DNA of 64,000 bases from positions 6,710-70,709 of the IMG/VR virus record IMGVR_UViG_3300030329_002967. One strand, 5' to 3'. Below, in pieces: positions 4,850-57,154 of the stretch (within the stretch, counting starts at the first letter, position 1; each line of letters starts with the position of its first letter). The translations under genes and the position numbers were made by a program. The notes beneath the pieces were generated by a model. It was not told the DNA's origin. It searched no databases and saw only the letters and a list, made by a program, of their open reading frames with translations. Source of the DNA: a virus.

Positions 4850-6114
4850 AAAATATAATCATTATCTGAATTAGAGTCACCCACTGTCTCGCCATCCTCA
4901 ACTAAAGGAACCTCAGATAAATCAACAGGCGTAAATGTAAAGGCCGTTGCAAATCTAGGAGAATCCCCCTCCCTATTCTTCATCACTTCAATAATCCTCT
5001 GAGTAGACTCATTAGGTGATGCTCCATCCCTCACCCCCAGTACAATGCTTGCATCCTGAGGGATAGAATCAGAGCCAGCTATATCACCTAAGTCAAAAGA
5101 CTTCTTAGATCTATTCTTCTGATTACGATTAAACTGCACACTCGCCACTACAGGGATATCATATCTTATAGCTATCTGCTTAAGCTCTCTAATAACCTCA
5201 CTGATACTCTCCCACCTACTTACATATCCCATTTTCCTACCTGACGGAGACAAGAGATATGCCGCATCGACATATACGCACGAAGGCGAAAACTCCAGTA
5301 CCATCTCTTCGATTGCGCCACAATCTTTCTTCATGTCTCCCGACAAAAGATGTACAGGGCTTCTACCTGACTCAGAGTCTATAGCTTCCATCATTCTCTG
5401 TTCTGGATGAGAGCCTACCTCACCAGCCCTAATGAAATTAGGGTTTATCCTAGTAGATCTCCCTAACCAACGCCTAGCAATCTGACGCATACTCATCTCC
5501 ATAGATATAAAAGCTATCGGATTATTTGCACGGGAAGCCGCATAAGCCATCTCCATTAATAACCATGACTTCCCCATACTCGGCCTACCAGCAATCACCA
5601 CAAGGTCACCTCCCATTAATCCACAAGTAGCCTCATCTAACGTATCCCACCCAGTAGGTATACCACGCAATCCCGGTGCATTCTTAGCTTCTAAATAATC
5701 AGAAGCCACACCTACCAACTCATCCGAAATAGTAGTAAATGAACTAGTGCCTATTGCCCTTCTAGCCTCCTGCAACATCTCAGACAAAACGTCTATAACG
5801 CCATCGGTATCCCTATTACGCATAGACTCAACCAACCTAGGATGCCTCTCATTCACCTCAGAGTAAGCAAACCTCTTCCTCAATAAGTCATAATAATAAT
5901 CGGGAGACGAAGACTGCCTAAGGGTAGAAAGCGGATGCCCAGCGGATGCCACCTCATCAGCAGTAGGCAACGCTCCGTAAGTATCTAAATGGTTCTTTAC
6001 ATAAAGAAGTGCTGGAACCTCTTCTTCCAAGAAGAACTCAGTAGATGACTTTCTTATAATAGACTCATTTGAGTGTTCAATACAGGCTCGTAATAATTTT
6101 AATCCTACAGACAT
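4846..6114 (-). CDS. DnaB-like replicative helicase
   Basis: GIPTGW..LD; Walker A AGRPSMGKS; ISMEM; VYVD; QFNR; GSDSIPQDA; KNREG. Confidence 0.95.
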   Translation of the reverse strand: MSVGLKLLRACIEHSNESIIRKSSTEFFLEEEVPALLYVKNHLDTYGALPTADEVASAGHPLSTLRQSSSPDYYYDLLRKRFAYSEVNERHPRLVESMRNRDTDGVIDVLSEMLQEARRAIGTSSFTTISDELVGVASDYLEAKNAPGLRGIPTGWDTLDEATCGLMGGDLVVIAGRPSMGKSWLLMEMAYAASRANNPIAFISMEMSMRQIARRWLGRSTRINPNFIRAGEVGSHPEQRMMEAIDSESGRSPVHLLSGDMKKDCGAIEEMVLEFSPSCVYVDAAYLLSPSGRKMGYVSRWESISEVIRELKQIAIRYDIPVVASVQFNRNQKNRSKKSFDLGDIAGSDSIPQDASIVLGVRDGASPNESTQRIIEVMKNREGDSPRFATAFTFTPVDLSEVPLVEDGETVGDSNSDNDYIL

Positions 6115-41303: not shown

Positions 41304-41351
41304 GCTATTACTATAGCTTAGGTTAAGACCTTTGTCAAGTTATTTTATTTA

Positions 41352-41483
41352 AATAAAAGGTGTGAGGAGGGATTTACTTTTTACCCTCAACTTTCGGTTT
41401 CAACATATTGCAGTTTAACCTAATCGCACTCCGCTCTCTTCGCTCAGCCGGTTGGCCCCTGCTCAAGACACAGATACTTTATT
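41352..41483 (-). ncRNA. candidate structured ncRNA
   Basis: ORF-free, imperfect closing stem, internal GAGGG/CCCTC hairpin, 3' U-rich tract. Confidence 0.4.
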
Positions 41484-41504
41484 GCTGTTGTAACAATTAT
41501 TCAG

Positions 41505-41810
41505 TCACTCACGTTGAGGAGCTACCTCAAAATTCATATCATCACTTAGTTGCTGTAAGCATTCCATAACATCGGTAAGTGATGCATCTACTGCGTCTAC
41601 CGTCTTATGTACATTACTCACCCTAGCTAACAGTAACGCTATAGTTATCTTGCTTAATTGGTCACTTGGGATTAACTCATCACCGCACACACACCGTAAT
41701 GCATTAACTGAAACTTCCACGGTTCCATGTGGGGAAGGTAGTTTAAGTTCCCTCGGTACTAGGTCGTAATAACCATCGCCGCATTCTGTACAACAAATTC
41801 CTTCTTTCAT
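41505..41810 (-). CDS. zinc-ribbon protein (YgiT/MqsA-N-like)
   Basis: CTEC...V.V.A.RC.CG.E. Confidence 0.6.
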   Translation of the reverse strand: MKEGICCTECGDGYYDLVPRELKLPSPHGTVEVSVNALRCVCGDELIPSDQLSKITIALLLARVSNVHKTVDAVDASLTDVMECLQQLSDDMNFEVAPQRE

Positions 41811-41814
41811 CGTG

Positions 41815-41985
41815 CTATTTCTTAGCCCTAAGACCTATGTCATATCGCTGAGTGGTATGCTTATACCATACAGCCATACGCCGATCCTCTTCTTTCTGCT
41901 TTATCCTTTCCAACTCGTGAGCAGTAGGTTTGGTAGCTTTCAATACTCTATTCCTCTCAAGGATACTTTTTTTAAATGGACTCAT
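41815..41985 (-). CDS. 56-aa basic early protein (absent from track)
   Basis: ORF directly behind promoter 41995-42023. Confidence 0.5.
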   Translation of the reverse strand: MSPFKKSILERNRVLKATKPTAHELERIKQKEEDRRMAVWYKHTTQRYDIGLRAKK

Positions 41986-42036
41986 CGTACTATTACTATA
42001 GCATAGTATAAAACCTTTGTCAAATAAAAAAGGCTA

Positions 42037-42129
42037 CTATTTTCTTGGTTTAGATACCGCAAAGAACCTAAGCACTGCTACCATAATTAGTAGCCAAAAT
42101 ATTAAACCAACTATAACTAATGGACTCAT
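42037..42129 (-). CDS. 30-aa single-TM peptide (absent from track)
   Basis: MSPLVIVGLIFWLLIMVAVLRFFAVSKPRK. Confidence 0.5.
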   Translation of the reverse strand: MSPLVIVGLIFWLLIMVAVLRFFAVSKPRK

Positions 42130-42618
42130 TACTTACCTTCCAATTCATCGATTATTTCAATGAGTTCATCTACCTTATCTTCAAGCTTTCTAAACCTTGA
42201 CTCGATAGCGTCCAACACCTCTTGCCATGACCTCAATTCTGTACGGGGTATATCGTTATCACTCATTGCTTTTACTAATCTATTGGCTGACGGCGTAAGC
42301 GTTTCTCTAAGATGCGCTTATACTTCTTAGCTTTAGCGGCTGAATTACCTCCACGGTGAAACTGCCCGTCCTCTTGCTTTGAACCTTTCATTATTCTCTT
42401 CATCATGCTTAACTATAGCACAAGTTAAAACCTTTGTCAACTAATTATATCAACTAATATTCGATAGTATTGAAACCGTTACAAGTGCCATTGGCATAAT
42501 TATAAAGCCCACGACATTGAATATAAACTGGGGTCTGCGGTTAGGTTTACCTTCTTCGTAGTATACTCCTCCCATCTCTTCCCACCATAGGTACAGGCGG
42601 GTACTCCACTTAGTTTTT

Positions 42619-42819
42619 TTATTTTTCATTATTTATCGTGTCAGCAATAAGCTCATTAATTCTCGTAAGGTTACGCTCTACTAGCCTTGCTTGAATACTG
42701 GCTTCAAGCTCATCAAAGGGCTTACCGATCTTAGTTATCTGACCTATTGCGTTTAGGGCCAGTGCTGTATTAGCTTCTATGCGAGCTAGGAGTGCGTGTG
42801 TATCGGTTGATATTCTCAT
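42619..42819 (-). CDS. early hypothetical protein
   Basis: ORF in the early unit. Confidence 0.5.
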   Translation of the reverse strand: MRISTDTHALLARIEANTALALNAIGQITKIGKPFDELEASIQARLVERNLTRINELIADTINNEK

Positions 42820-42824
42820 AGTCC

Positions 42825-43046
42825 TTAGATTCGTGATTCGTTTGAGCAGAGCTTGTCGGCTGATCTTCTGGCCTCGTCCTCTGCTCTATGCCATTCGGCT
42901 TCCTGATCCAGTTCTTCCTGCTCTATCATTTCGATAATGTCAGTCTCGTGAATAAGGTGGCCTCCTGCATCCTCGTAATACTCACTCGCTGGGTGAGAGG
43001 TAATGTGGTTGGCTTCGATATAATCTTTAATTTTTTCTTCCATCAT
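42825..43046 (-). CDS. early acidic hypothetical protein
   Basis: ATGATG start 6 nt from the -10 box. Confidence 0.65.
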   Translation of the reverse strand: MMEEKIKDYIEANHITSHPASEYYEDAGGHLIHETDIIEMIEQEELDQEAEWHRAEDEARRSADKLCSNESRI

Positions 43047-43099
43047 GATCTTACTATAGCACAGTCTAAAACCTTTGTCAAATAAAAAAGGTATTTATT

Positions 43100-43288
43100 T
43101 TAACTAGGGTGGGTAAGGGTGGTAACGGTAATATCATTAACGTGCTGGCGATCCCAATCATCGAACCCATCCATTAGATTATCGACCTTAACATCAGCAT
43201 CATCACGGGTGTCGAATGGGCCGTATACGGTGGCCCCGCAATTATCCCAACTCACTACTACAACTAGTTTATCTCCTTGTTTCATCAT
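43100..43288 (-). CDS. early hypothetical protein
   Basis: ATGATG start 5 nt from the -10 box; YGPF motif. Confidence 0.65.
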   Translation of the reverse strand: MMKQGDKLVVVVSWDNCGATVYGPFDTRDDADVKVDNLMDGFDDWDRQHVNDITVTTLTHPS

Positions 43289-43322
43289 GCCCTATTATAT
43301 CACAGTCTAAAACCTTTGTCAA

Positions 43323-43649
43323 CTAAAAAGAACTACTATATTCAATATCTGGGAACTCAATACGATGCCTCAACTCATCTTGGCCTCTCATCGCATGAAG
43401 CGAGCTTTCGCCTCCTATATGAAACTCGATACGCTCATCATCCGAGAACTCCCTGTACTCTTTCCAATCGTAAATCGTAAAGAATGAGCCATCGCTGGTC
43501 AGCATATCCCATTCAACTGTTGTCTTATCACCACCTCCACGCCAGCACGGTTCACCGCACACTGCTTTAATCTGATTTACAGACGCTAATATCGTCTGCC
43601 CGTGAAAACTTGTACTAATGAACGGAGTATTTTTTGCTTGTTTCATCAT
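43323..43649 (-). CDS. conserved phage early protein
   Basis: G.P....GDK...EW, FTIYDWK, FHIGG motif common in phage hypotheticals. Confidence 0.7.
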   Translation of the reverse strand: MMKQAKNTPFISTSFHGQTILASVNQIKAVCGEPCWRGGGDKTTVEWDMLTSDGSFFTIYDWKEYREFSDDERIEFHIGGESSLHAMRGQDELRHRIEFPDIEYSSSF

Positions 43650-43717
43650 GCTTTAATATAGCACACCCTAAAACCTTTGTCAAATAAAAAGAGCATTTAT
43701 TTTATGCGTTATTTAAC

Positions 43718-43746
43718 TTGACAAAGGATATAACCTGTGTTATATT
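43718..43746 (+). promoter_or_regulatory. divergent plus-strand promoter with no downstream ORF
   Basis: TTGACA-17-TATATT, back-to-back with the copy at 43655-43683. Confidence 0.75.
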
Positions 43747-43810
43747 AAGAGGGCGGTTAGTGAGATGGGTTGCCATTGGGTACGCTGGCCTAGAGTTCCG
43801 CTTAAAGGTT

Positions 43811-43928
43811 AAAAAAAGCGGCTACCACGATTAGGAAAACACCTACTCCTTCTCAGCCTAGAACCCCCTCTTGATTGAGAAGTCGAATGCAGGTGAAACT
43901 ACTCCCTACCTATGAAATCGTGGTAGCC
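43811..43928 (-). ncRNA. candidate structured ncRNA / long-stem terminator
   Basis: Perfect 13-bp IR GGCTACCACGATT/AATCGTGGTAGCC with nested CACCT/AGGTG and CTTCTCA/TGAGAAG stems, then T7 on the minus strand. Confidence 0.55.
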
Positions 43929-44126
43929 AAAGTGATCCTACTCGTACCAAGTAACCTTGGCAAGTGGGAATTTTTCAAGCACCTTAGCTACGAAAGCTTC
44001 TGCTGATCTGCGCTTGTAGCCAAATGGTCTAATTCTAGTCTCAAGGCCCGGTAATGTGTACTCTATTTCAATCATGCCTTACTATAACACAGGTTAAAAC
44101 ATTTGTCAACTAAAAAGATATACTAT

Positions 44127-44381
44127 TTAAATCATAACTGCGTAACCCTCGATGGCATCCTCTTCTCGGTCGCGTACGCCTTCGGTATAAGCGTTGGCCC
44201 AAGTCTCCCAATTATCCCCATCGTCTACGATGCCGATATTGGTTGGCATATTCACCCCGTTCTCCGCATCGAGTGCGTAGTATCCGATGTCGTAAGCGAC
44301 TTGGGCGATGGTGTTTTCGGTGACGTTGCCATCCTTATCGACAACTTCCTCATACTTCTTTCTTAGGGTTTCGTTCATCAT
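44127..44381 (-). CDS. early acidic hypothetical protein
   Basis: ATGATG start behind a promoter. Confidence 0.65.
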   Translation of the reverse strand: MMNETLRKKYEEVVDKDGNVTENTIAQVAYDIGYYALDAENGVNMPTNIGIVDDGDNWETWANAYTEGVRDREEDAIEGYAVMI

Positions 44382-44517
44382 ACCTAACTATATCACAGTA
44401 TAAAACCTTTGTCAACTAAAAAAGGTATTTAAATTGATGCTATCCCCATTAGTCTCCTCCTTTCGGATTGTAGGCGTGGTCTGACGCCTCGTTGTTCGGT
44501 CTTTCGACCTACACTAA

Positions 44518-44662
44518 TGGCTGTCCGTAGCAGGACTCGAACCTGCGACCTCCCCTTATACCATTAACAATGACTAGTTGCTTAAAGCGATACCAGCGAG
44601 TAGTCACTCTCTACTGGCTCTACTTCTAGGCGGGTTGCTCTGCCAACTGAGCTATACGGACA
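44518..44662 (-). tRNA. atypical tRNA-like RNA with a ~75-nt insert replacing the anticodon loop
   Basis: (T)GTCCGTA/TACGGAC(A) acceptor stem, TAGCTCAGTTGGCAGAGC D arm, AGGTC variable loop, GCAGG-TTCGAGT-CCTGC T arm, 3' GCCA; no canonical anticodon stem-loop. Confidence 0.75.
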
Positions 44663-44676
44663 TCAATTTAATTCTC

Positions 44677-44782
44677 ACTGATGACTCACTCCCATATAGG
44701 GTTAACGAGGAGTAATTACTTCCTCCATCGAACCGCTTGCAATCGGTTTCAACTTCACCCTATAGGGGAGTGAATCATCAGT
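44677..44782 (-). ncRNA. candidate structured ncRNA
   Basis: 25-bp closing IR with 2 mismatches enclosing two small hairpins; downstream of ATG-less promoter 44829-44857. Confidence 0.6.
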
Positions 44783-44892
44783 AATTTACGGGATAAGCTA
44801 CTTACTTTTACTTCACCTCCCGTGATTAAATATAGCACACCCTAAAACCTTTGTCAACTAAAAAGATATATTTTTATTTTTTATTTTTTTCC

Positions 44893-44920
44893 TTGACATA
44901 ATAAATAGTTATGCTATATT
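44893..44920 (+). promoter_or_regulatory. divergent plus-strand promoter
   Basis: TTGACA-16-TATATT with TG extension. Confidence 0.55.
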
Positions 44921-45042
44921 AGCACTGTTCGACAAATAGCCACGGTTGATGTAACCGATTGAACGATGTGCAAAATGCTCAATTCCTCAAAGGAGGTGGG
45001 ATTAAAACTTTCCCTATTCGGTAACCCCTAAAAAAACCTGCG

Positions 45043-45318
45043 CTACCGAAGAGCGGATAAAGGGGTCGGCTTAAACCATAAATCCCTCTCTATGCGAGCG
45101 GATGCCGCCTCAAAGGTAGACAAAGAGAAATAGCCTAGCTCACTCACATAGCCGTCCACAAGGCCAAAAAAGGTATCCTCACCATCAAACTCAGTTGCAT
45201 ACCAAGTGTAATTCCCAAAAGGGGTAAAGTACTTTACTATCGCCACTGGATCTTCCTCATGCTCAGTTGATCCAAGCTTAGGTAATTTACGTCGTAACTC
45301 TTTAGTTAATAATTTCAT
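45043..45318 (-). CDS. DUF2958-family protein
   Basis: LP.L...E......VK.FTP....TWY.TE.D....FFGLV.G...ELGYFSL, IERDL.F.P. Confidence 0.85.
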   Translation of the reverse strand: MKLLTKELRRKLPKLGSTEHEEDPVAIVKYFTPFGNYTWYATEFDGEDTFFGLVDGYVSELGYFSLSTFEAASARIERDLWFKPTPLSALR

Positions 45319-45343
45319 AATTAGTCTTAGTATAGCGGTACAA

Positions 45344-45499
45344 CTAAAAGCTTACCTTGCCCCTGCACTTAGCCTTACTCCTAGCCTTACGCTTATCTGT
45401 AATCCTACGGGTTCCGCTTACCATAAGCCAAGCGATAAACTTATCCCCACGCTTAACTCTGGCATGGGACACTGACTTTCTTTTTTTCGTTTTCATCAT
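45344..45499 (-). CDS. 51-aa highly basic protein (absent from track)
   Basis: MMKTKKRKSVSHARVKRGDKFIAWLMVSGTRRITDKRKARSKAKCRGKVSF; behind promoter 45505-45533. Confidence 0.6.
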   Translation of the reverse strand: MMKTKKRKSVSHARVKRGDKFIAWLMVSGTRRITDKRKARSKAKCRGKVSF

Positions 45500-45714
45500 A
45501 CCTAACTATAGCACATCCTAAAACCTTTGTCAAATAAAAAGACATACTTTATTGGTGATGTCTTTTAAGGCATATCCTGCGCCACTTCCTACGGGTAGTA
45601 GCAACATCCATGTCACAACTCTGTAGCAGACGCTTCCAACTCTCCCAGTTAGGTCTAGGCACGGGAGTCTCCTCCCATGCCCTTTTGCGTTCTTCGGGTG
45701 TAGTCACTTTCATA

Positions 45715-46125
45715 TTAATCTATTTCGTTACTGTAAGGACGCTTAGCGTCAACTACGTTCTTCCAACCATGACAATCCGCAACAAAGCCTTCGGACTCCA
45801 GAAACCCAACGTGCGAGCGAGCTTGCTCAACTGAGGTATCCATCGCATCAGCCAACTCATCAAAGTTCTCCCTACCGTTCAACACGATAGGACACTCGGA
45901 CGAGAAGATATACCTATTAAACGCCGCTCCTGCCCAATCAAGTCTACATCCCGTAAAGTCCCTAGGCACTCTCTGCTTACCCATAGCCGTCTGTACGCAC
46001 TCTTTAAGCCTAATGAACGAAGGACGAACCCCAAAATCTTCGGCGACTCTCCTACGGATCTCTGCTCCCTCCTTCAACTCGGCTGGGGTTGCCAGCCTTC
46101 CTTTATTTTTCTCTTTTTGCATCAT
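45715..46125 (-). CDS. early hypothetical protein
   Basis: ATGATG start behind a promoter. Confidence 0.65.
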   Translation of the reverse strand: MMQKEKNKGRLATPAELKEGAEIRRRVAEDFGVRPSFIRLKECVQTAMGKQRVPRDFTGCRLDWAGAAFNRYIFSSECPIVLNGRENFDELADAMDTSVEQARSHVGFLESEGFVADCHGWKNVVDAKRPYSNEID

Positions 46126-46184
46126 GTAGGTACATTAGCACAATAAAAAGATCTTTGCAAGTTTTATTTTCAATTATTTACAAA

Positions 46185-46214
46185 TAAAAAAAGGGAGGCT
46201 TTCGCCCCCCTTTA
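46185..46214 (-). terminator. Rho-independent terminator
   Basis: GGGGGGC-GAAA-GCCTCCC + T7 on the minus strand. Confidence 0.75.
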
Positions 46215-46217
46215 TTG

Positions 46218-46280
46218 TTATTTTTTGTTAATCTCGTCGTAGACAAGAATAGCCAGCAGTATTAATGCAAGTATTGTCAT
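46218..46280 (-). CDS. 20-aa hydrophobic peptide, copy 1
   Basis: MTILALILLAILVYDEINKK; paralogue at 50606-50668. Confidence 0.75.
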   Translation of the reverse strand: MTILALILLAILVYDEINKK

Positions 46281-46287
46281 AAATAAT

Positions 46288-46650
46288 TTAAACTACTACC
46301 ACCTCTACACGATCTTCCATTTCAGGAAAATCGCCCTTAATCTTTCCTGCAAGATAAGCTCTAGCTCTCTCCTTACCTACGTTGATCCACTCCCGTGAGT
46401 CAACAGGGCGGCCATTCACCTTAGGCAAGAAGTGTTCTTGGTGGAATCCAATCCCGGTTATCCCGTTAACTCGCTCCCTTGTGGTAGGGGTATTCCATCC
46501 TGCCAGCGTAGCAAACACTTCGCCATTTTCACGTTTGATAATCTTGTTACCAAACAGCCATACGCTTTCACCGTCCGTGTAAGTGTTATCCACTCTTAAC
46601 TCTCTGCCCGACTCAAATGCGGATTTAATTCGTTGTGTTATTTTTCTCAT
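46288..46650 (-). CDS. conserved phage early protein
   Basis: MRKIT..I..AF, NT, L.GN.I, GW.T.TT.ER.N motif. Confidence 0.7.
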   Translation of the reverse strand: MRKITQRIKSAFESGRELRVDNTYTDGESVWLFGNKIIKRENGEVFATLAGWNTPTTRERVNGITGIGFHQEHFLPKVNGRPVDSREWINVGKERARAYLAGKIKGDFPEMEDRVEVVVV

Positions 46651-46684
46651 GCTTTACTATATCACAGGTTAAAACCTTTGTCAA

Positions 46685-46855
46685 CTAAAAAGATGTAACT
46701 TCATCAATATAATTAACATTAAAATCATTATCTTCGAGTAGCTTTCTATCAGAGTAGTTCCTGACTATCTCTTCTGCTTCTTCTTTGTCCTTTGCTTCTA
46801 CTTCGTAGCAATTCATTATGCTAACGCCAACGTAGTATTTTTTCTTCTTACTCAT
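46685..46855 (-). CDS. small hypothetical protein (EVEA...EEA motif)
   Basis: AAGGAG Shine-Dalgarno before MSKKKKY. Confidence 0.55.
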   Translation of the reverse strand: MSKKKKYYVGVSIMNCYEVEAKDKEEAEEIVRNYSDRKLLEDNDFNVNYIDEVTSF

Positions 46856-46859
46856 CTCC

Positions 46860-47351
46860 TTATCTTCCATCTCTTTTATCCAGATCCTCTGGTTTCAGAT
46901 ACTCTGCTAGGTGTTGGCAATCCTCATCGGGGTAGTCATATACTTCTACGTTACCTTTTGAATCATGCTTATAGTTCCCGTCTTCATCCTTTAGTGCGTA
47001 GGATAAATCCCAAACTACTACTTCGTATTTTTTCTTCTTACTCATCTCCTTATCTTCCCAATCTATTGAATGAGCATAAACAAGTAACCCTTCCAAAGCC
47101 TGTGAAGGATCTGTAAGCTTTAATACAATATTGCACCCTTCATCTATAAGCTCCTCATTCTCAGAATTATCATAATCAAGTACCGCCTCTAAGGTTGGCG
47201 TATCTCTAACTATAACTGCTCTGTGATGCTGAAAAGAACGCTTACGAATTGCTCCAACGTCTCTAACCTTTAATGGATATACGAGAGTAGCTTCGTCGTA
47301 AGCTCTTGTGCAGGACTTCCTTATCTGTCTATACTTATTAGTGTTTTTCAT
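46860..47351 (-). CDS. early hypothetical protein, apparently two fused ORFs
   Basis: Internal SD + MSKKKKY identical to the start of the next gene. Confidence 0.55.
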   Translation of the reverse strand: MKNTNKYRQIRKSCTRAYDEATLVYPLKVRDVGAIRKRSFQHHRAVIVRDTPTLEAVLDYDNSENEELIDEGCNIVLKLTDPSQALEGLLVYAHSIDWEDKEMSKKKKYEVVVWDLSYALKDEDGNYKHDSKGNVEVYDYPDEDCQHLAEYLKPEDLDKRDGR

Positions 47352-47400
47352 CGTGCTTTACTATAACACAGGTTAAAACCTTTGTCAACTAAAAAGGCTA

Positions 47401-47982
47401 CTAATATTGATCTCCTTCCCTAGCGTATACTTCAACTCGCCTCTGAATTTCATCAAAGATTAAGTTAATAGTCTTCCGGCTAGTCTCCGTTCCGTAGTAC
47501 CCACTCCCATGCGTTCCTTCTTTGATTCTATTAACCCTCAGAGCCACTAACTTAAGTAACTCTTCACTGGTACAGGTTTCAAAAAAATCAGTATAAACAT
47601 CCCAATTCCATTCAACTCCATAAAGATCATTATCGGGTTTAGTAACAGGCTCTTCCTTATTCTTAGGAGCAGAGCAGAGCCGAGTAGACGCATACTCGCT
47701 TATATAAGGATTCATCCACTCCTTAACAAAATAATTAAGGGATCTTGTTCCTATAACTCCTTCATTAATAGGATGCCTACCTTTTCTATCATACCTATAT
47801 TGGATAGAAATGGAATTAGGTTTACCTGTCGCTTCCTCCACTGCCTTAATCGCATCCTCACCTACCCAATTCTGCTGAAGATAATGTTGGCGAAATCTTC
47901 CAACTTTACTGCAAACGCCATCAATTACTTCAGATGGGACGTTGCTCTCAATAAACTCTTTAATTGTTTCTATATTCATCAT
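47401..47982 (-). CDS. early hypothetical protein
   Basis: ATGATG start behind a promoter. Confidence 0.7.
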   Translation of the reverse strand: MMNIETIKEFIESNVPSEVIDGVCSKVGRFRQHYLQQNWVGEDAIKAVEEATGKPNSISIQYRYDRKGRHPINEGVIGTRSLNYFVKEWMNPYISEYASTRLCSAPKNKEEPVTKPDNDLYGVEWNWDVYTDFFETCTSEELLKLVALRVNRIKEGTHGSGYYGTETSRKTINLIFDEIQRRVEVYAREGDQY

Positions 47983-48037
47983 GCTTTTAATATAACACAG
48001 GTTAAAACCTTTGTCAAGTTATTTTATATAAGTTTTT

Positions 48038-48388
48038 TTAAGCTATCGCCTTCCTTCCTAACCCTTCCATATTTAGCTCTGGCCGCATCTCCTTAATCAT
48101 TGCAAGCTCACAGGCATGGGCTTCTTTCTTGCCTCGTATGATAGTCACTACTTCCCGTGTAAAGGCATCTGGCCCCGACTCTCTGATAGCATCAGCTATA
48201 CGAGTAACCTTACCGTACTGAAGTGCATTCCGTGTATGGGCCTTGAACCTATTCTTCACTGAACGAGTGAATGCCCTGCCTTCCGCTACTACCACACCTA
48301 TATACTGATCTCCTGTAGTATTGCAGGTAAGTTTATAAATCACATAGTTCCTATCGGAGCGTTTCTTGCGTGGTTTGTTTTTCATCAT
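48038..48388 (-). CDS. GIY-YIG-like nuclease-domain protein
   Basis: YVIYKLT...TG..YIG, R...H, E...I.....LN. Confidence 0.75.
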   Translation of the reverse strand: MMKNKPRKKRSDRNYVIYKLTCNTTGDQYIGVVVAEGRAFTRSVKNRFKAHTRNALQYGKVTRIADAIRESGPDAFTREVVTIIRGKKEAHACELAMIKEMRPELNMEGLGRKAIA

Positions 48389-48444
48389 GCCTACAGTATA
48401 CACAATAAAAGAACTTTGTCAAATAAAAAGATTGAACGACGTTC

Positions 48445-48625
48445 AAAAAAAATAGGGTCGGGAGAAACTCTTATATGCTGACTGTACGCCAACTAGTAAC
48501 TCCCGACCCCGGTATGATGAAAAAAGCTTGTAACAGTAACCAACCAAAGTTTTCGAGAATTTAAGATCCTGTTGTGGATCGCTCTATCACTTTGTAACTC
48601 CCTTGGTAGAGAGTGGTTACTGTTA
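48445..48625 (-). ncRNA. two tandem stem-closed candidate ncRNA elements
   Basis: IRs GGGTCGGGAG/CTCCCGACCC (48455-48509, followed by a T tract on minus) and TAACAGTAACCA/TGGTTACTGTTA (48531-48625). Confidence 0.5.
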
Positions 48626-48944
48626 AAATTATCTCCAATCGCCTATATGAACCACGTACTTATTCATATCAGGTGCTTCAATCTCAAAGGAAAGCTTCTC
48701 CATCTTCAGCCAGTAGATTAACTTAACCAACTGCTCTGTCTCGTATAATGTAATTGTGTCTCCCATCATGCTTTTACTATATCACAGGTTAAAACCTTTG
48801 TCAAATAAAAAGTGTTGGATTTTTGATAACGTGGATTTACCATTTATGGTGGGCTTACCATCGTTACTCTCAGACTCGCTGGTTTTCAACAGCAAGAGGT
48901 TATTTCTGCGTTTAGAAATTACCCAACTACCTTTGTACAAAATG

Positions 48945-49127
48945 TTAACAATAATCATTATGAGTAAATATATCTTTCCATAGTTTTACAACTTCCTTAT
49001 CACTCATCTTATTATAAACGAAATCTAACAGGAGATCGACTATCTCACCTTCATGCATAGTGCGAGCTTCCCTTTGAGCTAATTCAAAACGCTTATTCTT
49101 TAACTCAATCATCTCTTCTTCTTTCAT
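48945..49127 (-). CDS. hypothetical protein
   Basis: ORF in the early unit. Confidence 0.5.
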   Translation of the reverse strand: MKEEEMIELKNKRFELAQREARTMHEGEIVDLLLDFVYNKMSDKEVVKLWKDIFTHNDYC

Positions 49128-49132
49128 AACTT

Positions 49133-49381
49133 CTAACGATACTTACTGTTAAACTGTAACTCCCAACCCTTCGGGCTAACTCCCGTGACCGCAAACTCCC
49201 TGTCATCCGCACTAAGCGACCTTAGCGCATCTTGAGCTAAAGCCCCTTGGTTGTACCGAAACAACTCCTGCGCTGGAATAGCGACGCTATACTCCTCTCC
49301 CGTAACGACACACGGCCCCGTAAAAGTGTAAACGTGTGGGTCGTAGGACTCTTCGTATTTGCAGTTTTGTAGGTATGCCAT
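49133..49381 (-). CDS. conserved small phage protein
   Basis: G.L.QDA...LSADDREF..TG..P..W motif. Confidence 0.7.
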   Translation of the reverse strand: MAYLQNCKYEESYDPHVYTFTGPCVVTGEEYSVAIPAQELFRYNQGALAQDALRSLSADDREFAVTGVSPKGWELQFNSKYR

Positions 49382-49583
49382 AATTATTCGTAGCTGTAAG
49401 GGATGCTGTCATCTGAATAAACTTCAGATAGTTGTTTTGCGATTAGTGCGACCCTCTCGGTTTCATTCGCATCATCATTCAATATCTCCCATAGCTCTCG
49501 TGGATCTGACTCCCCGAAAACTTCCCGTGGGTCTTGTTGTATCAATTCTTTATTTTTCATCATGCCTTACTATAACACAGGAA

Positions 49584-49850
49584 TTATTCTTTGTCAATTA
49601 AAATATATAACTTTTTTAATAACCTTCTGTACCGAGCATCCAGTACTATAACTACCCCTAAGATAAGAATGTTCAGCACCTTGATAGGCAGGAGTTCCAT
49701 GCCTTTTTCGGAATCAACTAAATACAGCATAACCCACGCAAATGTGCCTACCAGCACTGCCCATAGCAATAACTCCTTTATTCTATACAGTCTGCAAAGC
49801 CTACTATGTAGGCGAGTAGACTCGCTAAATTGGTATTCGGTTTTCTTCAT
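49584..49850 (-). CDS. two-TM membrane protein
   Basis: Two hydrophobic helices. Confidence 0.55.
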   Translation of the reverse strand: MKKTEYQFSESTRLHSRLCRLYRIKELLLWAVLVGTFAWVMLYLVDSEKGMELLPIKVLNILILGVVIVLDARYRRLLKKLYILIDKE

Positions 49851-50254
49851 CTCTTCGATCTGCTGGTGTAATATTCGTTAAGCTCCTTCTGGGTTTCGGT
49901 AAATGAATCCCATGACTTACTCAGGTGGGCTGAGGTAACTCGCTCGTTATGCTCATCTTCACCTGCGTAGAGCGGGATGGCGCAAGTCTTCCCGTCTTCG
50001 TCACATGGCCTGTAGTTATCCACATGATCCCATAAGTCTACGTTTGGTATCCACCAAAGGTTAGTCTTTCGGGTCTGCTCTAGGTAGGCATCTGAGCCAG
50101 TCTTGGTGTCCTTAGAGTCGAAGCCTAAGCCGTAAATTCTTGCCAGCCTTCCCATAGCCTCAAATGGGTTTCGGCCAGTGCAGTAGCCCATACAACTCGT
50201 AGCGAAGTACGTGCCTTTCTGGGATGTTAAATATAAGTCTAAGTTTTTCATCAT
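49847..50254 (-). CDS. early hypothetical protein
   Basis: ATGATG start behind a promoter. Confidence 0.65.
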   Translation of the reverse strand: MMKNLDLYLTSQKGTYFATSCMGYCTGRNPFEAMGRLARIYGLGFDSKDTKTGSDAYLEQTRKTNLWWIPNVDLWDHVDNYRPCDEDGKTCAIPLYAGEDEHNERVTSAHLSKSWDSFTETQKELNEYYTSRSKR

Positions 50255-50304
50255 GCTATTACTATATCACAGGTTAAATCCTTTGTCAAGTTATTTATGT
50301 AAGT

Positions 50305-50562
50305 TTATATTACGTGGCCCTCATAGAGATAAAGATCGTCTGGGAAATCACCTCCGCACGTTACCCATGTAATCCCGGTAACCCTGTAATCGTACTGTTC
50401 GCACTCACCGAATACGTCATAGTCCTCATACCAAGGTGCAGGGTATTCGCCTCCTACCTCTGGCTTCAGTTCGGCTACAATCCCTGAGAACTCTTCGCCC
50501 TTCCATATGAAGCGTATTCGCTGGCCTACGCTTACTGCTGTACTGCACTGTTGTTTCATCAT
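50305..50562 (-). CDS. early hypothetical protein
   Basis: ATGATG start behind a promoter. Confidence 0.65.
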   Translation of the reverse strand: MMKQQCSTAVSVGQRIRFIWKGEEFSGIVAELKPEVGGEYPAPWYEDYDVFGECEQYDYRVTGITWVTCGGDFPDDLYLYEGHVI

Positions 50563-50605
50563 ATTATACTATAACACAGGTCAAAACCTTTGTCAAGTTA
50601 TTTAT

Positions 50606-50668
50606 TTATTTTTTATTGAGTTCGTCATAAATCAAAATCGCCAGTAAAAGAAGGGCTAATATTGTCAT
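50606..50668 (-). CDS. 20-aa hydrophobic peptide, copy 2
   Basis: MTILALLLLAILIYDELNKK; own promoter at 50674-50701. Confidence 0.75.
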   Translation of the reverse strand: MTILALLLLAILIYDELNKK

Positions 50669-50746
50669 GCCCTAATATAGCACATAAAAAACCTTTGTCA
50701 AGTAAATTATATATTTAATTTTTTTAATTTTTATACGATATTTTGC

Positions 50747-55770: not shown

Positions 55771-56006
55771 TAAACTTCTTTTGGATGCATCATTATAAAT
55801 CCTTTACCATTACACTTAACTCCCAGCACATTATAATCTATCCACTCAACTGCTTCTTCATGGCCCATACCTTGACTCATAAACACACTTACCATCTTTT
55901 TATAATCATATACTAATAAGCCACAATCAGATGAGCCTACGATTGCATCGTCTAACCCATCTAATATTAATGCTCCGTCTTCAAGATTATCTATTTCTAC
56001 ACTCAT
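55770..56006 (-). CDS. conserved small phage protein
   Basis: DG.DDAI.G, VYD..K, GM..EEA.EW..YN..G. Confidence 0.75.
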   Translation of the reverse strand: MSVEIDNLEDGALILDGLDDAIVGSSDCGLLVYDYKKMVSVFMSQGMGHEEAVEWIDYNVLGVKCNGKGFIMMHPKEV

Positions 56007-57154
56007 GGCTCGATTGTCTCCTTCTTTTCAGATTCAGCTAACTCCATTCTTAATTTTCTATTAGATTTTACAACCGCATAATTCTCAGGGGCGGCTAAGA
56101 AGTTAGAAACTTTAACACCTTCATGGTCGTTACATAAAATAGACATAACTTGAGCCTTGTATACTCCCCTATTGTCAAGAAATCCAGCCATATCTCTCTC
56201 CATCCTAGAAAACATTCCCTTAAACTTAGAATTTAACTTGGGTTCAGTAATAAGCTTCTCAAGCAAATGATCCCTATAATCTTTCCAATCCCCAAACATA
56301 GGAGGAACATCCTTAGGAAAATAATCTTGGACTCCCATCTTCCCAGCCATGTCTATCCCCTCTATTCTCTTAACCAACCTCTCATAAGTCTGAGGCTCGA
56401 TCTCCTGTAAGACAAACAATGCCCATACAGCAGTCTCATGGTGAACATTACTCACCCTCATCTTAGTGCTTGCTACGCCATACCTATAAAAATGATCGTA
56501 TAATTTACAGTAAGGCCAATCATGGTCGTTTATAGCTTTCCATATATCAGTAGTAGCCCAATCATAAATAGGATAAAACGTCACGTTAGTAGTAGGCTCA
56601 AGAGTCTTTCCCCAAGTCACCCATTTATAACAAAGTGAGTGCGTGAGAGCTACAGTCCTAGAGGGAGACTCCTCGCACCTAACCCCGGCTAAAAAGGCCG
56701 TCTTCTTATTGGGCCACAAGACATTAGGTATCTTCTTAAACAACTGAGAAAATCTATCAGTCCCGAAATTATTTTCAGTAATAGCATAAGACTCCTTAGG
56801 TCTTATCCAAAGATCCTCCTTACCCTCATCCCAGCATTCAAGCCAATGCTCATCTACACTAGTAGCATTAAATAGTTTAAACGGTATCTGCAACCAATAT
56901 GGTTCAACGTCAGGATGCTCCATCATCTGACGAACAGAATCGATAGTCGCTTGCCACTCAGCCTCTTGATCCAAGAACAACACCTTAAGAGGTAATCTAT
57001 TCGCCTCCTTCGCCGCTTCCAAGGCTAACTGAAACGTAACAGTAGAATCCTTACCTCCACTAGTAGACACTACTACATTGTCAAACTCAGAAAAGATCCA
57101 CCTCATACGCCTCCTAGCCGCATCTAAAACATTCTCATTCTTAAAGGTTTTCAT
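56003..57154 (-). CDS. IbrA-like PAPS-reductase/PP-loop protein (DUF3440-associated)
   Basis: NV..AA..R, SGGKDS PP-loop, LDQEAE, GVR.EES..R, YPIYDW...DIW, MRVS, EP.T. Confidence 0.9.
   Translation of the reverse strand: MKTFKNENVLDAARRRMRWIFSEFDNVVVSTSGGKDSTVTFQLALEAAKEANRLPLKVLFLDQEAEWQATIDSVRQMMEHPDVEPYWLQIPFKLFNATSVDEHWLECWDEGKEDLWIRPKESYAITENNFGTDRFSQLFKKIPNVLWPNKKTAFLAGVRCEESPSRTVALTHSLCYKWVTWGKTLEPTTNVTFYPIYDWATTDIWKAINDHDWPYCKLYDHFYRYGVASTKMRVSNVHHETAVWALFVLQEIEPQTYERLVKRIEGIDMAGKMGVQDYFPKDVPPMFGDWKDYRDHLLEKLITEPKLNSKFKGMFSRMERDMAGFLDNRGVYKAQVMSILCNDHEGVKVSNFLAAPENYAVVKSNRKLRMELAESEKKETIEP

What the first reader, a model, noticed from the sequence alone, without database searches (positions are those of the whole stretch)
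44518..44662. tRNA-shaped RNA whose anticodon arm is replaced by a domain carrying a tmRNA-tag-like mini-ORF
Seen: the minus strand has a clean acceptor stem (7 bp, extendable to 8, then G-CCA), D arm, variable loop and T arm. Where the 7-nt anticodon loop should be there are ~75 nt with their own hairpins (GCCAG..GAG.AGT/ACT.CTC.CTGGT, CATT/AATG), closed by only CCC/GGG. The insert reads UAGAA|GUA GAG CCA GUA GAG AGU GAC UAC UCG CUG GUA UCG CUU UAA = VEPVESDYSLVSL*. Known: tmRNA tags follow a UA(R)NN|GNN resume signal and are acidic with a Y-x-L-hydrophobic end. However, tmRNAs carry a G3.U70 alanine acceptor, lack a D stem and are far longer. Inference: a miniature tRNA/tmRNA chimaera, a tRNA-elbow decoy (e.g. 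against anticodon nucleases), or a tRNA with a very small novel intron. The tag resemblance may be chance.
Basis: partly seen in the sequence, partly recalled or inferred. Interest (0 to 1): 0.85.

Follow-up and report, generated by a model that had tools for sequence, protein, structure and literature searches.

The report
tRNA-shaped module in phage noncoding RNA
An uncultivated marine phage carries one tRNA-shaped gene with about 76 extra bases where the anticodon loop should be, set inside a larger folded early RNA; it is real and conserved, but its tmRNA-like mini-ORF is what chance gives.

Summary
Rfam's tRNA model matches 44522-44661(-) at 46.3 bits, with 76 unaligned bases in the anticodon loop. 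Default ARAGORN finds nothing. The tmRNA reading is not supported. ARAGORN and Rfam give no tmRNA match, the record has no SmpB, the acceptor lacks G3.U70, a normal D arm is present, and 14302 of 20000 shuffles give an equally long open frame.

The element is the core of a promoter-bounded noncoding cassette of about 400 nt (fold z -7.1). The cassette has an upstream Y-shaped domain, a 10-bp closing helix, the tRNA-like module, and a downstream four-way domain that pairs with the CCA. In a diverged relative (L303), neighbouring DNA is 86-90% identical, yet the 245 nt of tRNA-like module plus downstream domain differ at 3 positions. Two of those form a compensatory pair in the closing helix.

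Best reading (0.5): a tRNA-derived, non-decoding mimic embedded in an early phage RNA. Main rival (0.2): a tRNA-Ile(UAU) with a new kind of 67-nt intron. No homologue was found in more distant relatives, so the fold of the insert is unresolved.

The parts
44829..44857 (-). Early promoter of the cassette: TTGACA, 17-nt spacer, TG-extended TATATT
   Evidence: 11 of 12 hexamer positions match. It is one of 19 copies of a conserved 19-nt promoter motif, all on the minus strand, against 0.01 expected by chance.
44788..44823 (-). Optional 5' hairpin
   Evidence: Predicted in the minimum-energy fold. It is absent from relative L303.
44675..44784 (-). Upstream Y-shaped domain: a 27-bp stem bearing two hairpins
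   Evidence: Against L303 there are 14 substitutions, of which 2 pairs change on both sides and 3 on one side while staying paired; 5 pairs are broken.
44662..44671 (-). Closing helix, 5' strand (UUAAAUUGAU)
   Evidence: Pairs with 44429-44438. G at 44664 pairs with C at 44436. Both change (G-C to A-U) in L303, and both changes are also seen in run X7 on separate contigs.
44518..44662 (-). tRNA-like module. Acceptor 44655-44661 with 44523-44529, D arm 44637-44652, T arm 44530-44546, then A and GCCA at 44518-44522
   Evidence: Rfam tRNA 46.3 bits.
44556..44631 (-). 76-nt insert in place of the anticodon loop, closed by CCC/GGG
   Evidence: Only two changes are seen in relatives: 44625 in X7 and L303, and 44631 in X8.
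44582..44623 (-).
   Evidence: One search confirms the letters. One search shows the open frame is at chance level. No relative varies inside it.
44560..44574 (-). Anticodon-arm-like hairpin inside the insert: GUCA, loop UUGUUAA, UGGU
   Evidence: A hairpin of this kind with GUU appears in 25 of 20000 shuffles; one with any anticodon appears in 1801 of 20000. The choice of GUU was made after seeing the sequence. The hairpin competes with the other folds.
44446..44520 (-). Downstream four-way domain. Its outer helix CCAUUAGU/ACUAAUGG sequesters the CCA; it has two GAAA-loop hairpins and one 6-bp hairpin
   Evidence: Identical in window, L303, L320 and L323. Covered with few changes by contigs of X7, X8, X9 and X19.
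44429..44438 (-). Closing helix, 3' strand. It overlaps the end of a 6-codon frame, MGIASI*, at 44429-44449
   Evidence: The only change in that frame in L303 is the compensatory partner of 44664.
44387..44415 (-). Promoter of the next cassette, marking the 3' limit of the unit
   Evidence: No intrinsic terminator was found between the two promoters (0 found in the region).

Best explanation
The element is the tRNA-derived, L-shaped core of an early noncoding RNA cassette of roughly 360-400 nt in an uncultivated marine phage. It is neither a decoding tRNA nor a tmRNA.

Shown:
- The cassette has its own strong early promoter and holds no reading frame of 60 or more codons on either strand.
- All class-I tRNA arms and the bases usually involved in elbow and core contacts are intact.
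- The anticodon loop is replaced by a conserved 76-nt domain.
- The strand 5' of the acceptor stem pairs with sequence about 225 nt downstream, and one compensatory change supports that helix.
- In the predicted fold the CCA is paired into a downstream four-way domain that does not vary among the copies compared.

Inferred: the RNA acts folded as a whole, or at least needs that fold. It presents a tRNA elbow and acceptor-like arm to a host factor that binds tRNA, while the enlarged anticodon arm carries a second, exchangeable function.

The mechanism I commit to is tRNA mimicry early in infection: a decoy or sponge for a host tRNA-binding enzyme or a tRNA-targeting defence nuclease. A natural tRNA scaffold that stabilises and presents the inserted domain is the close alternative. 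The ancestor was a class-I tRNA. The 7-bp register and the remains of the anticodon arm look like tRNA-Ile(UAU). The 8-bp register (U:A, G, CCA) and a GUU hairpin look like tRNA-Asn.
For: - tRNA likeness: Rfam tRNA 46.3 bits against a gathering score of 29.
- Own promoter and no terminator. No ORF of 60 aa or more lies in 44420-44825 on either strand.
- The 406-nt unit folds at -146.7 kcal/mol against -107.5 +/- 5.5 for shuffles (z -7.1; 0 of 100 shuffles fold as well).
- Relative L303 shows 3 changes in the 245 nt of tRNA-like module plus downstream domain, against 14 substitutions plus 3 inserted bases in the 110-nt upstream domain. Neighbouring DNA is 86.0% and 90.0% identical.
- Two of those 3 changes are the two sides of one pair of the closing helix. 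Overall 3 pairs change on both sides, against 0 in each of six slid controls; 20 of 500 shuffles reach this.
- The same two changes occur in run X7, and neither occurs in X8.
- The spliced product ARAGORN proposes would have only 3 of 5 anticodon-stem pairs, with an internal G.G. Only 7 of 1052 tRNAs from the fetched loci have so few pairs.
- The record has no RtcB, tRNA splicing endonuclease or SmpB, and Rfam finds no group I or ribozyme family at E up to 10.
- One contig of RNA run X19 keeps the T arm, the 3' acceptor strand and the downstream domain (3 other letters in 119). Upstream of the variable loop it carries an unrelated 9-10-bp hairpin, which suggests the central domain is exchangeable and that even this form is non-decoding.
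Against: - No RNA data show the size or ends of the product.
- Support for the closing helix rests on one compensatory pair between two lineages.
- High conservation could reflect recent exchange of the cassette rather than selection.
- Pairing of a 5' leader with a 3' trailer also occurs in ordinary tRNA precursors (recalled).
- The flanks of the insert rebuild a typical Ile loop, CU|UAUAA. The discriminator A73 and the pairs C4-G69, U12-A23 and C29-G41 fit the E. coli tRNA-Ile identity set (recalled).
- AUA makes up 39% of 864 Ile codons, and this is the only tRNA-like gene in the 70.7-kb record. All of this fits a real tRNA-Ile(UAU).
- No target or partner of the supposed decoy is known.
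- The insert shows no better complementarity to the flanking domains than shuffles do: 824 and 568 of 1000 shuffles score at least as well.
- The X19 variant is a single 151-nt contig.
Confidence: 0.5

Rival explanations
1. It is a functional tRNA-Ile(UAU), the phage's only tRNA, serving its many AUA codons. The gene is interrupted between U33 and U34 by a 67-nt intron of a kind not yet described. The conserved insert and perhaps the flanking domains would take part in excision and ligation.
For:
- The flanks rebuild the loop CUUAUAA. Apart from one substitution, one missing G and one extra A, the arm remains match the anticodon arm of a phage tRNA-Ile(UAU) among the fetched loci.
- The 5' exon ends in U and the insert ends in G, as at group I splice sites (the rule is recalled).
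- AUA is 39% of 864 Ile codons.
- The insert is conserved.
- Other phage tRNA genes carry small inserts next to the anticodon loop. L113 has two with homologous inserts, and one of them is a perfect tRNA-Asn once the insert is removed.
Against: - 67 nt is far below the size of any group I intron (recalled), and Rfam Intron_gpI gives no match at E up to 10.
- The insert has no GGG that could pair with the 5' exon as a guide sequence.
- No bulge-helix-bulge appears in either fold.
- The record has no RtcB and no splicing endonuclease.
- The spliced anticodon stem would have 3 of 5 pairs, with an internal G.G; only 7 of 1052 tRNAs have so few.
- The one variant at that G (G to A in X8) does not restore the pair.
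- Both ends of the acceptor stem continue into other helices.
Confidence: 0.2
2. It is a decaying tRNA gene broken by an insertion, carried along in a mobile promoter cassette, with no function of its own.
For: - Four near-complete related phage genomes (terminase 50-62% identical) have no tRNA, no tmRNA and no homologue of the unit.
- The cassettes are reshuffled between close relatives.
- The anticodon stem is defective.
Against: - All arms and tertiary-contact bases are intact.
- The module and the downstream domain differ from L303 at 3 of 245 positions, while neighbouring DNA differs by 10-14%.
- There is a compensatory change in the closing helix.
- The cassette has a strong dedicated promoter.
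Confidence: 0.12
3. It is a cis-acting regulatory leader. The tRNA-like fold and the downstream domain control access to the Shine-Dalgarno-like GGAGGAG and the AUG of the 6-codon frame, or read-through into the next gene, somewhat like a T-box with its own built-in tRNA.
For: - The CCA pairs with UGG overlapping an AUG that has a well-spaced GGAGG upstream.
- There is no terminator before the next cassette.
Against: - The next gene has its own promoter.
- The only change in the 6-codon frame is explained by RNA pairing.
- Rfam gives no T-box match at E up to 10.
- In L303 the cassette is followed by a different gene.
Confidence: 0.06
4. It is a miniature tRNA/tmRNA chimaera that tags stalled proteins with the peptide encoded in the insert.
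For: The frame exists as read. The element has an acceptor stem, a T arm and an encoded CCA.
Against: - The acceptor has C3-G70, or U-A in the 8-bp register, rather than G3.U70, and a full D stem is present.
- ARAGORN tmRNA mode finds nothing even at relaxed score, and Rfam tmRNA families give no match at E up to 10.
- The record has no SmpB.
- The open frame is expected by chance in 72% of shuffles.
- About half of the fold ensemble buries the frame in helices.
- The X19 relative lacks this domain altogether.
Confidence: 0.02

Closest known systems
Class-I elongator tRNA genes of phages (tRNA-Ile(UAU) or tRNA-Asn(GUU) type)
   Same: The acceptor, D, variable and T arms and the bases for elbow and core contacts are the same; Rfam scores 46.3 bits. 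The D and T arms are letter-for-letter those of 63 bacterial tRNAs from the species collection.
   Different: 76 extra bases sit in place of a 7-nt anticodon loop. Only CCC/GGG remains of the anticodon stem. The acceptor stem can extend to 8 bp. Both ends continue into further helices.
Phage T4 species 1 RNA (rnaC), a 139-nt stable RNA of unknown function beside the T4 tRNA genes
   Same: Both are phage-encoded small RNAs of about 140 nt with an acceptor-like stem and a canonical T arm but no usable anticodon arm.
   Different: There is no sequence similarity (nhmmer finds no hit at E up to 10). T4 rnaC lacks a normal D arm and reaches only 17.5 bits on the tRNA-Sec model. It lies in a tRNA cluster, not in its own promoter cassette.
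GOLLD and ROOL, large ornate phage RNAs, some with tRNAs in a linker region
   Same: All are large structured noncoding RNAs of phages linked to tRNAs. [quoted passage not shown] PMC5737381 says both are often near tRNAs.
   Different: This unit is smaller (about 400 nt against about 580 and 800 nt), has no Rfam match to either family, and its embedded tRNA-like module is itself non-canonical.
tmRNA
   Same: Both have an acceptor stem, a T arm, a CCA end and a non-tRNA domain between the two halves.
   Different: There is no G3.U70, a D stem is present, no pseudoknots were found, there is no detector match and no SmpB, and the frame is at chance level.
Bacterial tRNA genes with group I introns in the anticodon loop (tRNA-Leu(UAA), tRNA-Ile(CAU); recalled)
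   Same: The insert lies in the anticodon loop, the 5' exon ends in U and the insert ends in G.
   Different: The insert is 67-76 nt, with no group I core and no internal guide sequence.
YrlA, the bacterial Y RNA with a tRNA-like domain (PMC4201824, listing and abstract seen)
   Same: Both are tRNA mimics whose anticodon side is replaced by another helix.
   Different: In YrlA the RNA ends lie on the anticodon side and the RNA works with Rsr (recalled). Here the ends lie on the acceptor side, the Rfam YrlA score is 15.8 bits against a gathering score of 69, and the record has no TROVE/Rsr gene.

Membership tests
tRNA (Rfam RF00005) | Cloverleaf with acceptor, D and T arms and conserved elbow bases, scoring above the family threshold | tested here: met
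   46.3 bits against a gathering score of 29, model positions 1-71 of 71.
tRNA (Rfam RF00005) | 5-bp anticodon stem closing a 7-nt loop with U33 and an anticodon | tested here: not met
   76 unaligned bases sit between ACCC and GGGG. Default ARAGORN finds no tRNA.
Intron-containing tRNA | Removing one contiguous insert restores a canonical anticodon arm | tested here: inconclusive
   ARAGORN -i restores the loop CUUAUAA, but the stem has 3 of 5 pairs with an internal G.G. Only 7 of 1052 reference tRNAs have so few pairs.
Intron-containing tRNA | A spliced RNA exists | not testable with these tools
   The only RNA run holding part of the locus gave one contig, from a variant allele.
Group I intron | Conserved catalytic core (P3-P9) and an internal guide sequence pairing with the 5' exon | tested here: not met
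   No Intron_gpI match at E up to 10 in 43800-45400. The insert contains no GGG.
Archaeal-type bulge-helix-bulge intron | Two 3-nt bulges separated by a 4-bp helix at the splice sites, and a splicing endonuclease | tested here: not met
   Neither fold places the ARAGORN junctions in such bulges (my inspection). The record has no tRNA_int_endo and no RtcB.
tmRNA | G3.U70 alanine identity pair in the acceptor stem | tested here: not met
   The pair is C3-G70 in the 7-bp register and U-A in the 8-bp register.
tmRNA | tRNA-like domain without a D stem; pseudoknots around the reading frame; recognised by tmRNA detectors | tested here: not met
   A 4-bp D stem is present. ARAGORN -m at a relaxed threshold finds nothing. 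No Rfam tmRNA family matches at E up to 10.
tmRNA | Tag frame conserved at codon level among homologues | tested here: inconclusive
   None of the relatives seen differs inside the frame. The frame itself is at chance level.
tmRNA | Partner protein SmpB (host or phage) | tested here: not met
   No SmpB in the 70.7-kb record, which is estimated 80% complete. The host is unknown.
YrlA / Y RNA | Family covariance model match and a linked Rsr (TROVE) gene | tested here: not met
   15.8 bits against a gathering score of 69. No TROVE gene.
GOLLD / ROOL | Family covariance model match | tested here: not met
   No match at the gathering score in the window, nor at E up to 10 around the locus.
T4 species 1 RNA (rnaC) | Sequence homology to T4 rnaC | tested here: not met
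   nhmmer of the 406-nt unit against the T4 tRNA/rnaC/rnaD region gives no hit at E up to 10.

The most novel reading that the evidence does not exclude
The 67-nt insert is a new class of tRNA intron in the phage's only tRNA, a tRNA-Ile(UAU) serving AUA, which makes up 39% of its Ile codons. The covariation-supported flanking domains and the closing helix would form, together with the insert, a discontinuous RNA machine. That machine would hold the two tRNA halves and excise the insert, either by itself or with a host nuclease and ligase. This would be the first small non-group-I tRNA intron in a bacterial virus.
Probability: 0.1. Interest if true: 0.9.

Novelty: new variant of a known kind. 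Interest (0 to 1): 0.55.

Why it matters
Phages are known to carry tRNAs, a few tRNA-like stable RNAs of unknown role (T4 species 1) and large ornate RNAs linked to tRNAs (GOLLD, ROOL). None of these has a worked-out mechanism.

This cassette is compact and has a clear anatomy. It has a strong early promoter and an intact tRNA elbow and acceptor. An exchangeable 76-nt domain replaces the anticodon loop. A downstream domain clamps the CCA, and one helix is supported by a compensatory change.

If it is a decoy, it would be an RNA-level counter-measure aimed at a host tRNA-binding enzyme or a tRNA-cutting defence. If it is spliced, it would be a new intron type.

It also shows a blind spot in annotation. 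Default ARAGORN and the genome-wide tRNA search both missed it. A first pattern scan turned up several other phage tRNA genes with 55-100-nt inserts.

Tried and rejected
- Homologue searches that found nothing useful:
  - The GenBank phage collection gave no DNA match for the 601-nt locus or for 10 kb around it.
  - The single-protein terminase search of viral contigs gave none.
  - A promoter-motif scan gave 119 stretches, none related by blastn.
  - The exact 29-nt T-arm/acceptor string is in no other viral contig.
  - The pattern joining the T loop to the downstream hairpin gave 2 unrelated tRNAs in viral contigs.
  - The same pattern gave 25 stretches in metagenome contigs. Only 3 hold the unit (L320 and L323 near-identical, L303 diverged); the other 22 are ordinary tRNAs followed by a hairpin.
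- Terminase-based relatives:
  - 63 loci hold no homologue of the unit (nhmmer, E up to 10) and no intron-bearing tRNA; ARAGORN finds 4 ordinary tRNA-Met(CAU) genes.
  - BLAST of the unit against five whole records gave only 14-18-nt chance matches.
  - Four whole related genomes hold no tRNA, no tmRNA and no unit.
Most are tandem tRNAs, and none has an insert like this one.
- No complementary target of the insert turned up elsewhere in the window; the longest exact match is 11 nt.
- A hammerhead reading of the CUGAUGA in the upstream domain was rejected by hand, because no GAA follows helix II, and Rfam gives no match.
- An HDV-like or theta-ribozyme reading of the downstream domain was rejected by hand. 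The helices are simply nested with no pseudoknot topology. The theta consensus was recalled only, not checked.
- A built-in codon-anticodon contact (UUGUU of the insert with AACAA of the downstream domain), and any pairing between insert and flanks, is no better than in shuffles.
- A GAAA-tetraloop receptor in the insert (CCUAG.../...AAUGG against the recalled 11-nt receptor) is only a near match and was not tested.
- The ancestor's identity is unresolved:
  - The best-matching phage tRNA is an Asn (47 of 56 positions) against Thr and Val (45 of 56).
  - Among 63 bacterial tRNAs with identical D and T arms, the anticodons are GUU 19, CUU 14, UUU 12, CAU 9 and others 9.
  - All 19 GUU genes, and none of the other 44, have U1:A72, G73 and CCA together. 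The element matches that signature only in its 8-bp register.
- Literature searches for phage tRNA introns or insert-bearing phage tRNAs listed nothing describing such elements. That says only that these searches of the held library found none. Supplementary files were not consulted.
- Parts of the locus without cover in the laid runs (for example 44788-44821 in X7) are not interpreted.
Full report
**What is there.** On the minus strand, 44518-44662 reads as a class-I tRNA body. It has a 7-bp acceptor stem that a flanking U:A extends to 8 bp, followed by G-CCA. It also has a 4-bp D stem with an 8-nt GG loop, the variable loop AGGUC and a 5-bp T arm. Rfam's tRNA model matches 44522-44661 at 46.3 bits (gathering score 29, E 1e-6 for the window). 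It aligns all 71 model positions but leaves 76 bases unaligned where the anticodon loop should be. Default ARAGORN finds no tRNA or tmRNA in the window, and the genome-wide Rfam-based search of the record also missed the element. The bases that normally build the tRNA core and elbow are all in place by inspection: U8, A14, G15/C48, G18G19, G46 and U54U55C56. These roles are recalled.

**The mini-ORF.** However, a stop-closed open run of 13 or more codons occurs in 14302 of 20000 shuffles of the insert, and in 10257 of 20000 random 76-nt pieces of this strand. Several other checks go against a tmRNA:
- ARAGORN's tmRNA mode at a relaxed threshold finds nothing.
- No Rfam tmRNA family matches at E up to 10.
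- The acceptor has C3-G70 rather than G3.U70, and a normal D stem is present.
- The record has no SmpB.
- None of the relatives differs inside the frame, so codon-level conservation cannot be tested.

The tmRNA reading is therefore unsupported.

**Context.** The window is part of a 70.7-kb virus record estimated 80% complete. All long ORFs lie on the minus strand. They include family A DNA polymerase, DnaB-like helicase, primase, terminase, portal, capsid, tail tape measure and an ATP-dependent ligase. A 19-nt early promoter motif occurs 19 times, all on the minus strand, against 0.01 expected. Most copies lie between 41.3 and 50.7 kb, among short ORFs. One copy sits just upstream of the element (TTGACA, 17 nt, TG-TATATT; 11 of 12 positions) and the next sits just downstream. 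No intrinsic terminator lies between them, and no ORF of 60 aa or more lies there on either strand. The 406 nt between the promoters fold at -146.7 kcal/mol against -107.5 +/- 5.5 for shuffles (z -7.1; 0 of 100 fold as well). The 145-nt element alone is unremarkable (z -1.64).

**Anatomy of the unit.**
- A 5' hairpin.
- A Y-shaped upstream domain: a 27-bp stem with two hairpins.
- A 10-bp closing helix, 44662-44671 with 44429-44438.
- The tRNA-like module.
- A downstream four-way domain. Its outer helix CCAUUAGU/ACUAAUGG ties up the CCA, and two of its hairpins have GAAA loops.

A 6-codon frame (MGIASI*) with a good Shine-Dalgarno sequence lies in this last domain.

**Relatives.**
- The GenBank phage collection has no DNA match. 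The terminase is at most about 32% identical to any phage there.
- Metagenomic proteins include one terminase at 94% identity and many at 45-65%.
- 63 viral loci found with the terminase profile hold no homologue of the unit and no intron-bearing tRNA.
- Four whole related genomes hold no tRNA, no tmRNA and no unit.
- In the phage's own record the element is the only tRNA-like gene.

The cassette is therefore confined to a narrow lineage.

A pattern scan of metagenome contigs gave two near-identical copies (L320, L323) and one diverged copy, L303. Public runs holding the locus are labelled marine, seawater or hydrothermal-vent metagenomes. Contigs from four runs of four studies were laid on it.

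**What the relatives show.** In L303 the neighbouring DNA is 86.0% and 90.0% identical and the cassettes stand in a different order. This suggests recombination at the shared promoters. L303 lacks the 5' hairpin. The 110-nt upstream domain has 14 substitutions and 3 inserted bases. Of its affected pairs, 2 change on both sides, 3 change on one side and stay paired, and 5 break.

By contrast, the 245 nt from the closing helix through the tRNA-like module and downstream domain differ at only 3 positions:
- One is an A-to-G change in the insert (44625).
- The other two (44664 and 44436) are the two sides of one G-C pair of the closing helix, which becomes A-U.

Across the whole structure 3 pairs change on both sides, against 0 in each of six slid controls; 20 of 500 shuffles reach this. 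Run X7 shows the same two changes, on separate contigs. X8 shows neither, but has a G-to-A change at 44631. This evidence comes from two lineages and is therefore thin. Still, it ties the 5' flank of the tRNA-like module to sequence about 225 nt downstream. It also explains the only change in the 6-codon frame as an RNA-level change.

One 151-nt contig of an RNA run (X19) keeps the downstream domain, the 3' acceptor strand and the T arm, with 3 other letters in 119. It then diverges exactly at the start of the variable loop. In its place it carries an unrelated 9-10-bp hairpin with a 6-nt loop, followed by a purine-rich linker. This hints that the central domain is exchangeable, and that the other allele is not a decoding tRNA either. 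It is a single contig.

**The insert.** With the cloverleaf fixed, two folds share the ensemble about equally. One is a long irregular rod. Both variant positions are unpaired in the first fold and stay paired in the second (G.U to A-U, and A-U to G.U). This does not discriminate between them. The insert has no better complementarity to the flanking domains than shuffles do, and no target elsewhere in the window. It contains a hairpin with the loop UUGUUAA, the heptamer of a tRNA-Asn anticodon loop. Such a GUU hairpin appears in 25 of 20000 shuffles, though GUU was chosen after the fact.

**Which tRNA did it come from?** Two signals conflict.

In the 8-bp register, the outer U:A pair followed by G and CCA is the signature of all 19 tRNA-Asn(GUU) genes among 63 bacterial tRNAs with the same D and T arms. 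None of the other 44 has it. The best-matching phage tRNA is also an Asn, at 47 of 56 positions against 45 for Thr and Val.

In the canonical 7-bp register the picture is different:
- The element has G1-C72 and A73, like most of the others.
- The flanks of the insert rebuild CU|UAUAA between CCC and GGG, followed by AGGUC. This is close to the anticodon arm of a phage tRNA-Ile(UAU) among the fetched loci.
- AUA is 39% of 864 Ile codons in 43 long ORFs.

**Intron or mimic?** Against splicing:
- The proposed product has 3 of 5 anticodon-stem pairs with an internal G.G. Only 7 of 1052 tRNAs called in the fetched loci have so few.
- The X8 variant at that G does not repair the pair.
- The insert is far too small for a group I intron (recalled) and matches no intron or ribozyme family.
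- No bulge-helix-bulge is evident in either fold.
- The record has no RtcB and no splicing endonuclease.
- Both ends of the acceptor stem continue into helices.

For splicing:
- The Ile-type loop halves flank the insert.
- The junctions are U|...G|.
- The phage uses AUA heavily.
- The insert is conserved.
- Other phage tRNA genes carry small inserts.

I put the non-decoding mimic at 0.5 and the intron at 0.2. Which host factor is mimicked is inference only.

**Comparison with known systems.**
- T4 species 1 RNA is the nearest precedent for a roughly 140-nt phage RNA with an acceptor-like stem and a T arm but no anticodon arm. It shares no sequence with this unit.
- GOLLD RNAs sometimes carry tRNAs in a linker region (passages read), but this unit matches neither GOLLD nor ROOL.
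- YrlA, tmRNA and group I tRNA introns each fail defining features (see the membership table).

I therefore file it as a new variant of a known kind, phage tRNA-like noncoding RNA. It is well defined in anatomy and unresolved in function.

Noticed in passing
L113 6439-6565 and 6720-6848 (= L035 202-328 and 483-611): Two neighbouring tRNA genes lie in a phage array of more than 25 tRNAs. They carry homologous inserts of about 56-60 nt just 5' of the anticodon loop. The second becomes a perfect tRNA-Asn(GUU) if the insert between positions 31 and 32 is removed. The same contig also has an uninterrupted tRNA-Asn(GUU) (4120-4193) and a permuted tmRNA (5144-5448). The shared insert motif occurs only in these two contigs. 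This may be a small mobile tRNA intron in a bacterial jumbo phage.
   Followed up: partly
L007, L017, L029, L038, L067 (positions as): This is a family of tRNA-like genes with a central domain of about 90-100 nt, found in phage tRNA arrays that also hold a tmRNA. L007 and L029 differ by a hairpin swap that keeps the pairing.
   Followed up: no
window 41357-41530 (-): A manA RNA motif (Rfam RF01745, 56.8 bits against a gathering score of 55.2) lies 3 kb downstream, in the same early region.
   Followed up: no
window 41324-50705 and 1943, 61945 (-): There are 19 copies of a 19-nt early promoter motif. In relative L303 the promoter-bounded cassettes stand in a different order, which suggests recombination at the promoters.
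   Followed up: partly
window 44429-44449 (-): A six-codon frame, MGIASI*, with a well-spaced GGAGG lies inside the downstream domain. Its AUG is paired with the CCA of the tRNA-like module. Its only change in L303 is the compensatory partner of 44664.
   Followed up: yes
window 56003-57154 (-) and others: One ORF has a PAPS-reductase domain plus DUF3440. Three ORFs have ParB N-terminal domains, and one has a GIY-YIG endonuclease domain. Cpn10, DUF1257, DUF2997, DUF3721 and a Kyanoviridae Gp96-like protein also appear. The host is not identified.
   Followed up: no
run X8, contigs 9 and 10 laid on 44529-44550 and 44636-44655: An ordinary tRNA with a GUU anticodon arm, from another organism, shares about 20 nt of the D arm and of the T arm letter for letter with the element. 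It appeared as a false 'joint' skipping 85 bases.
   Followed up: yes
window 44578-44715 (+): A 45-codon TTG-started frame lies on the opposite strand across the element. It is the only listed frame there and runs against the direction of all genes, so it is taken as spurious.
   Followed up: no
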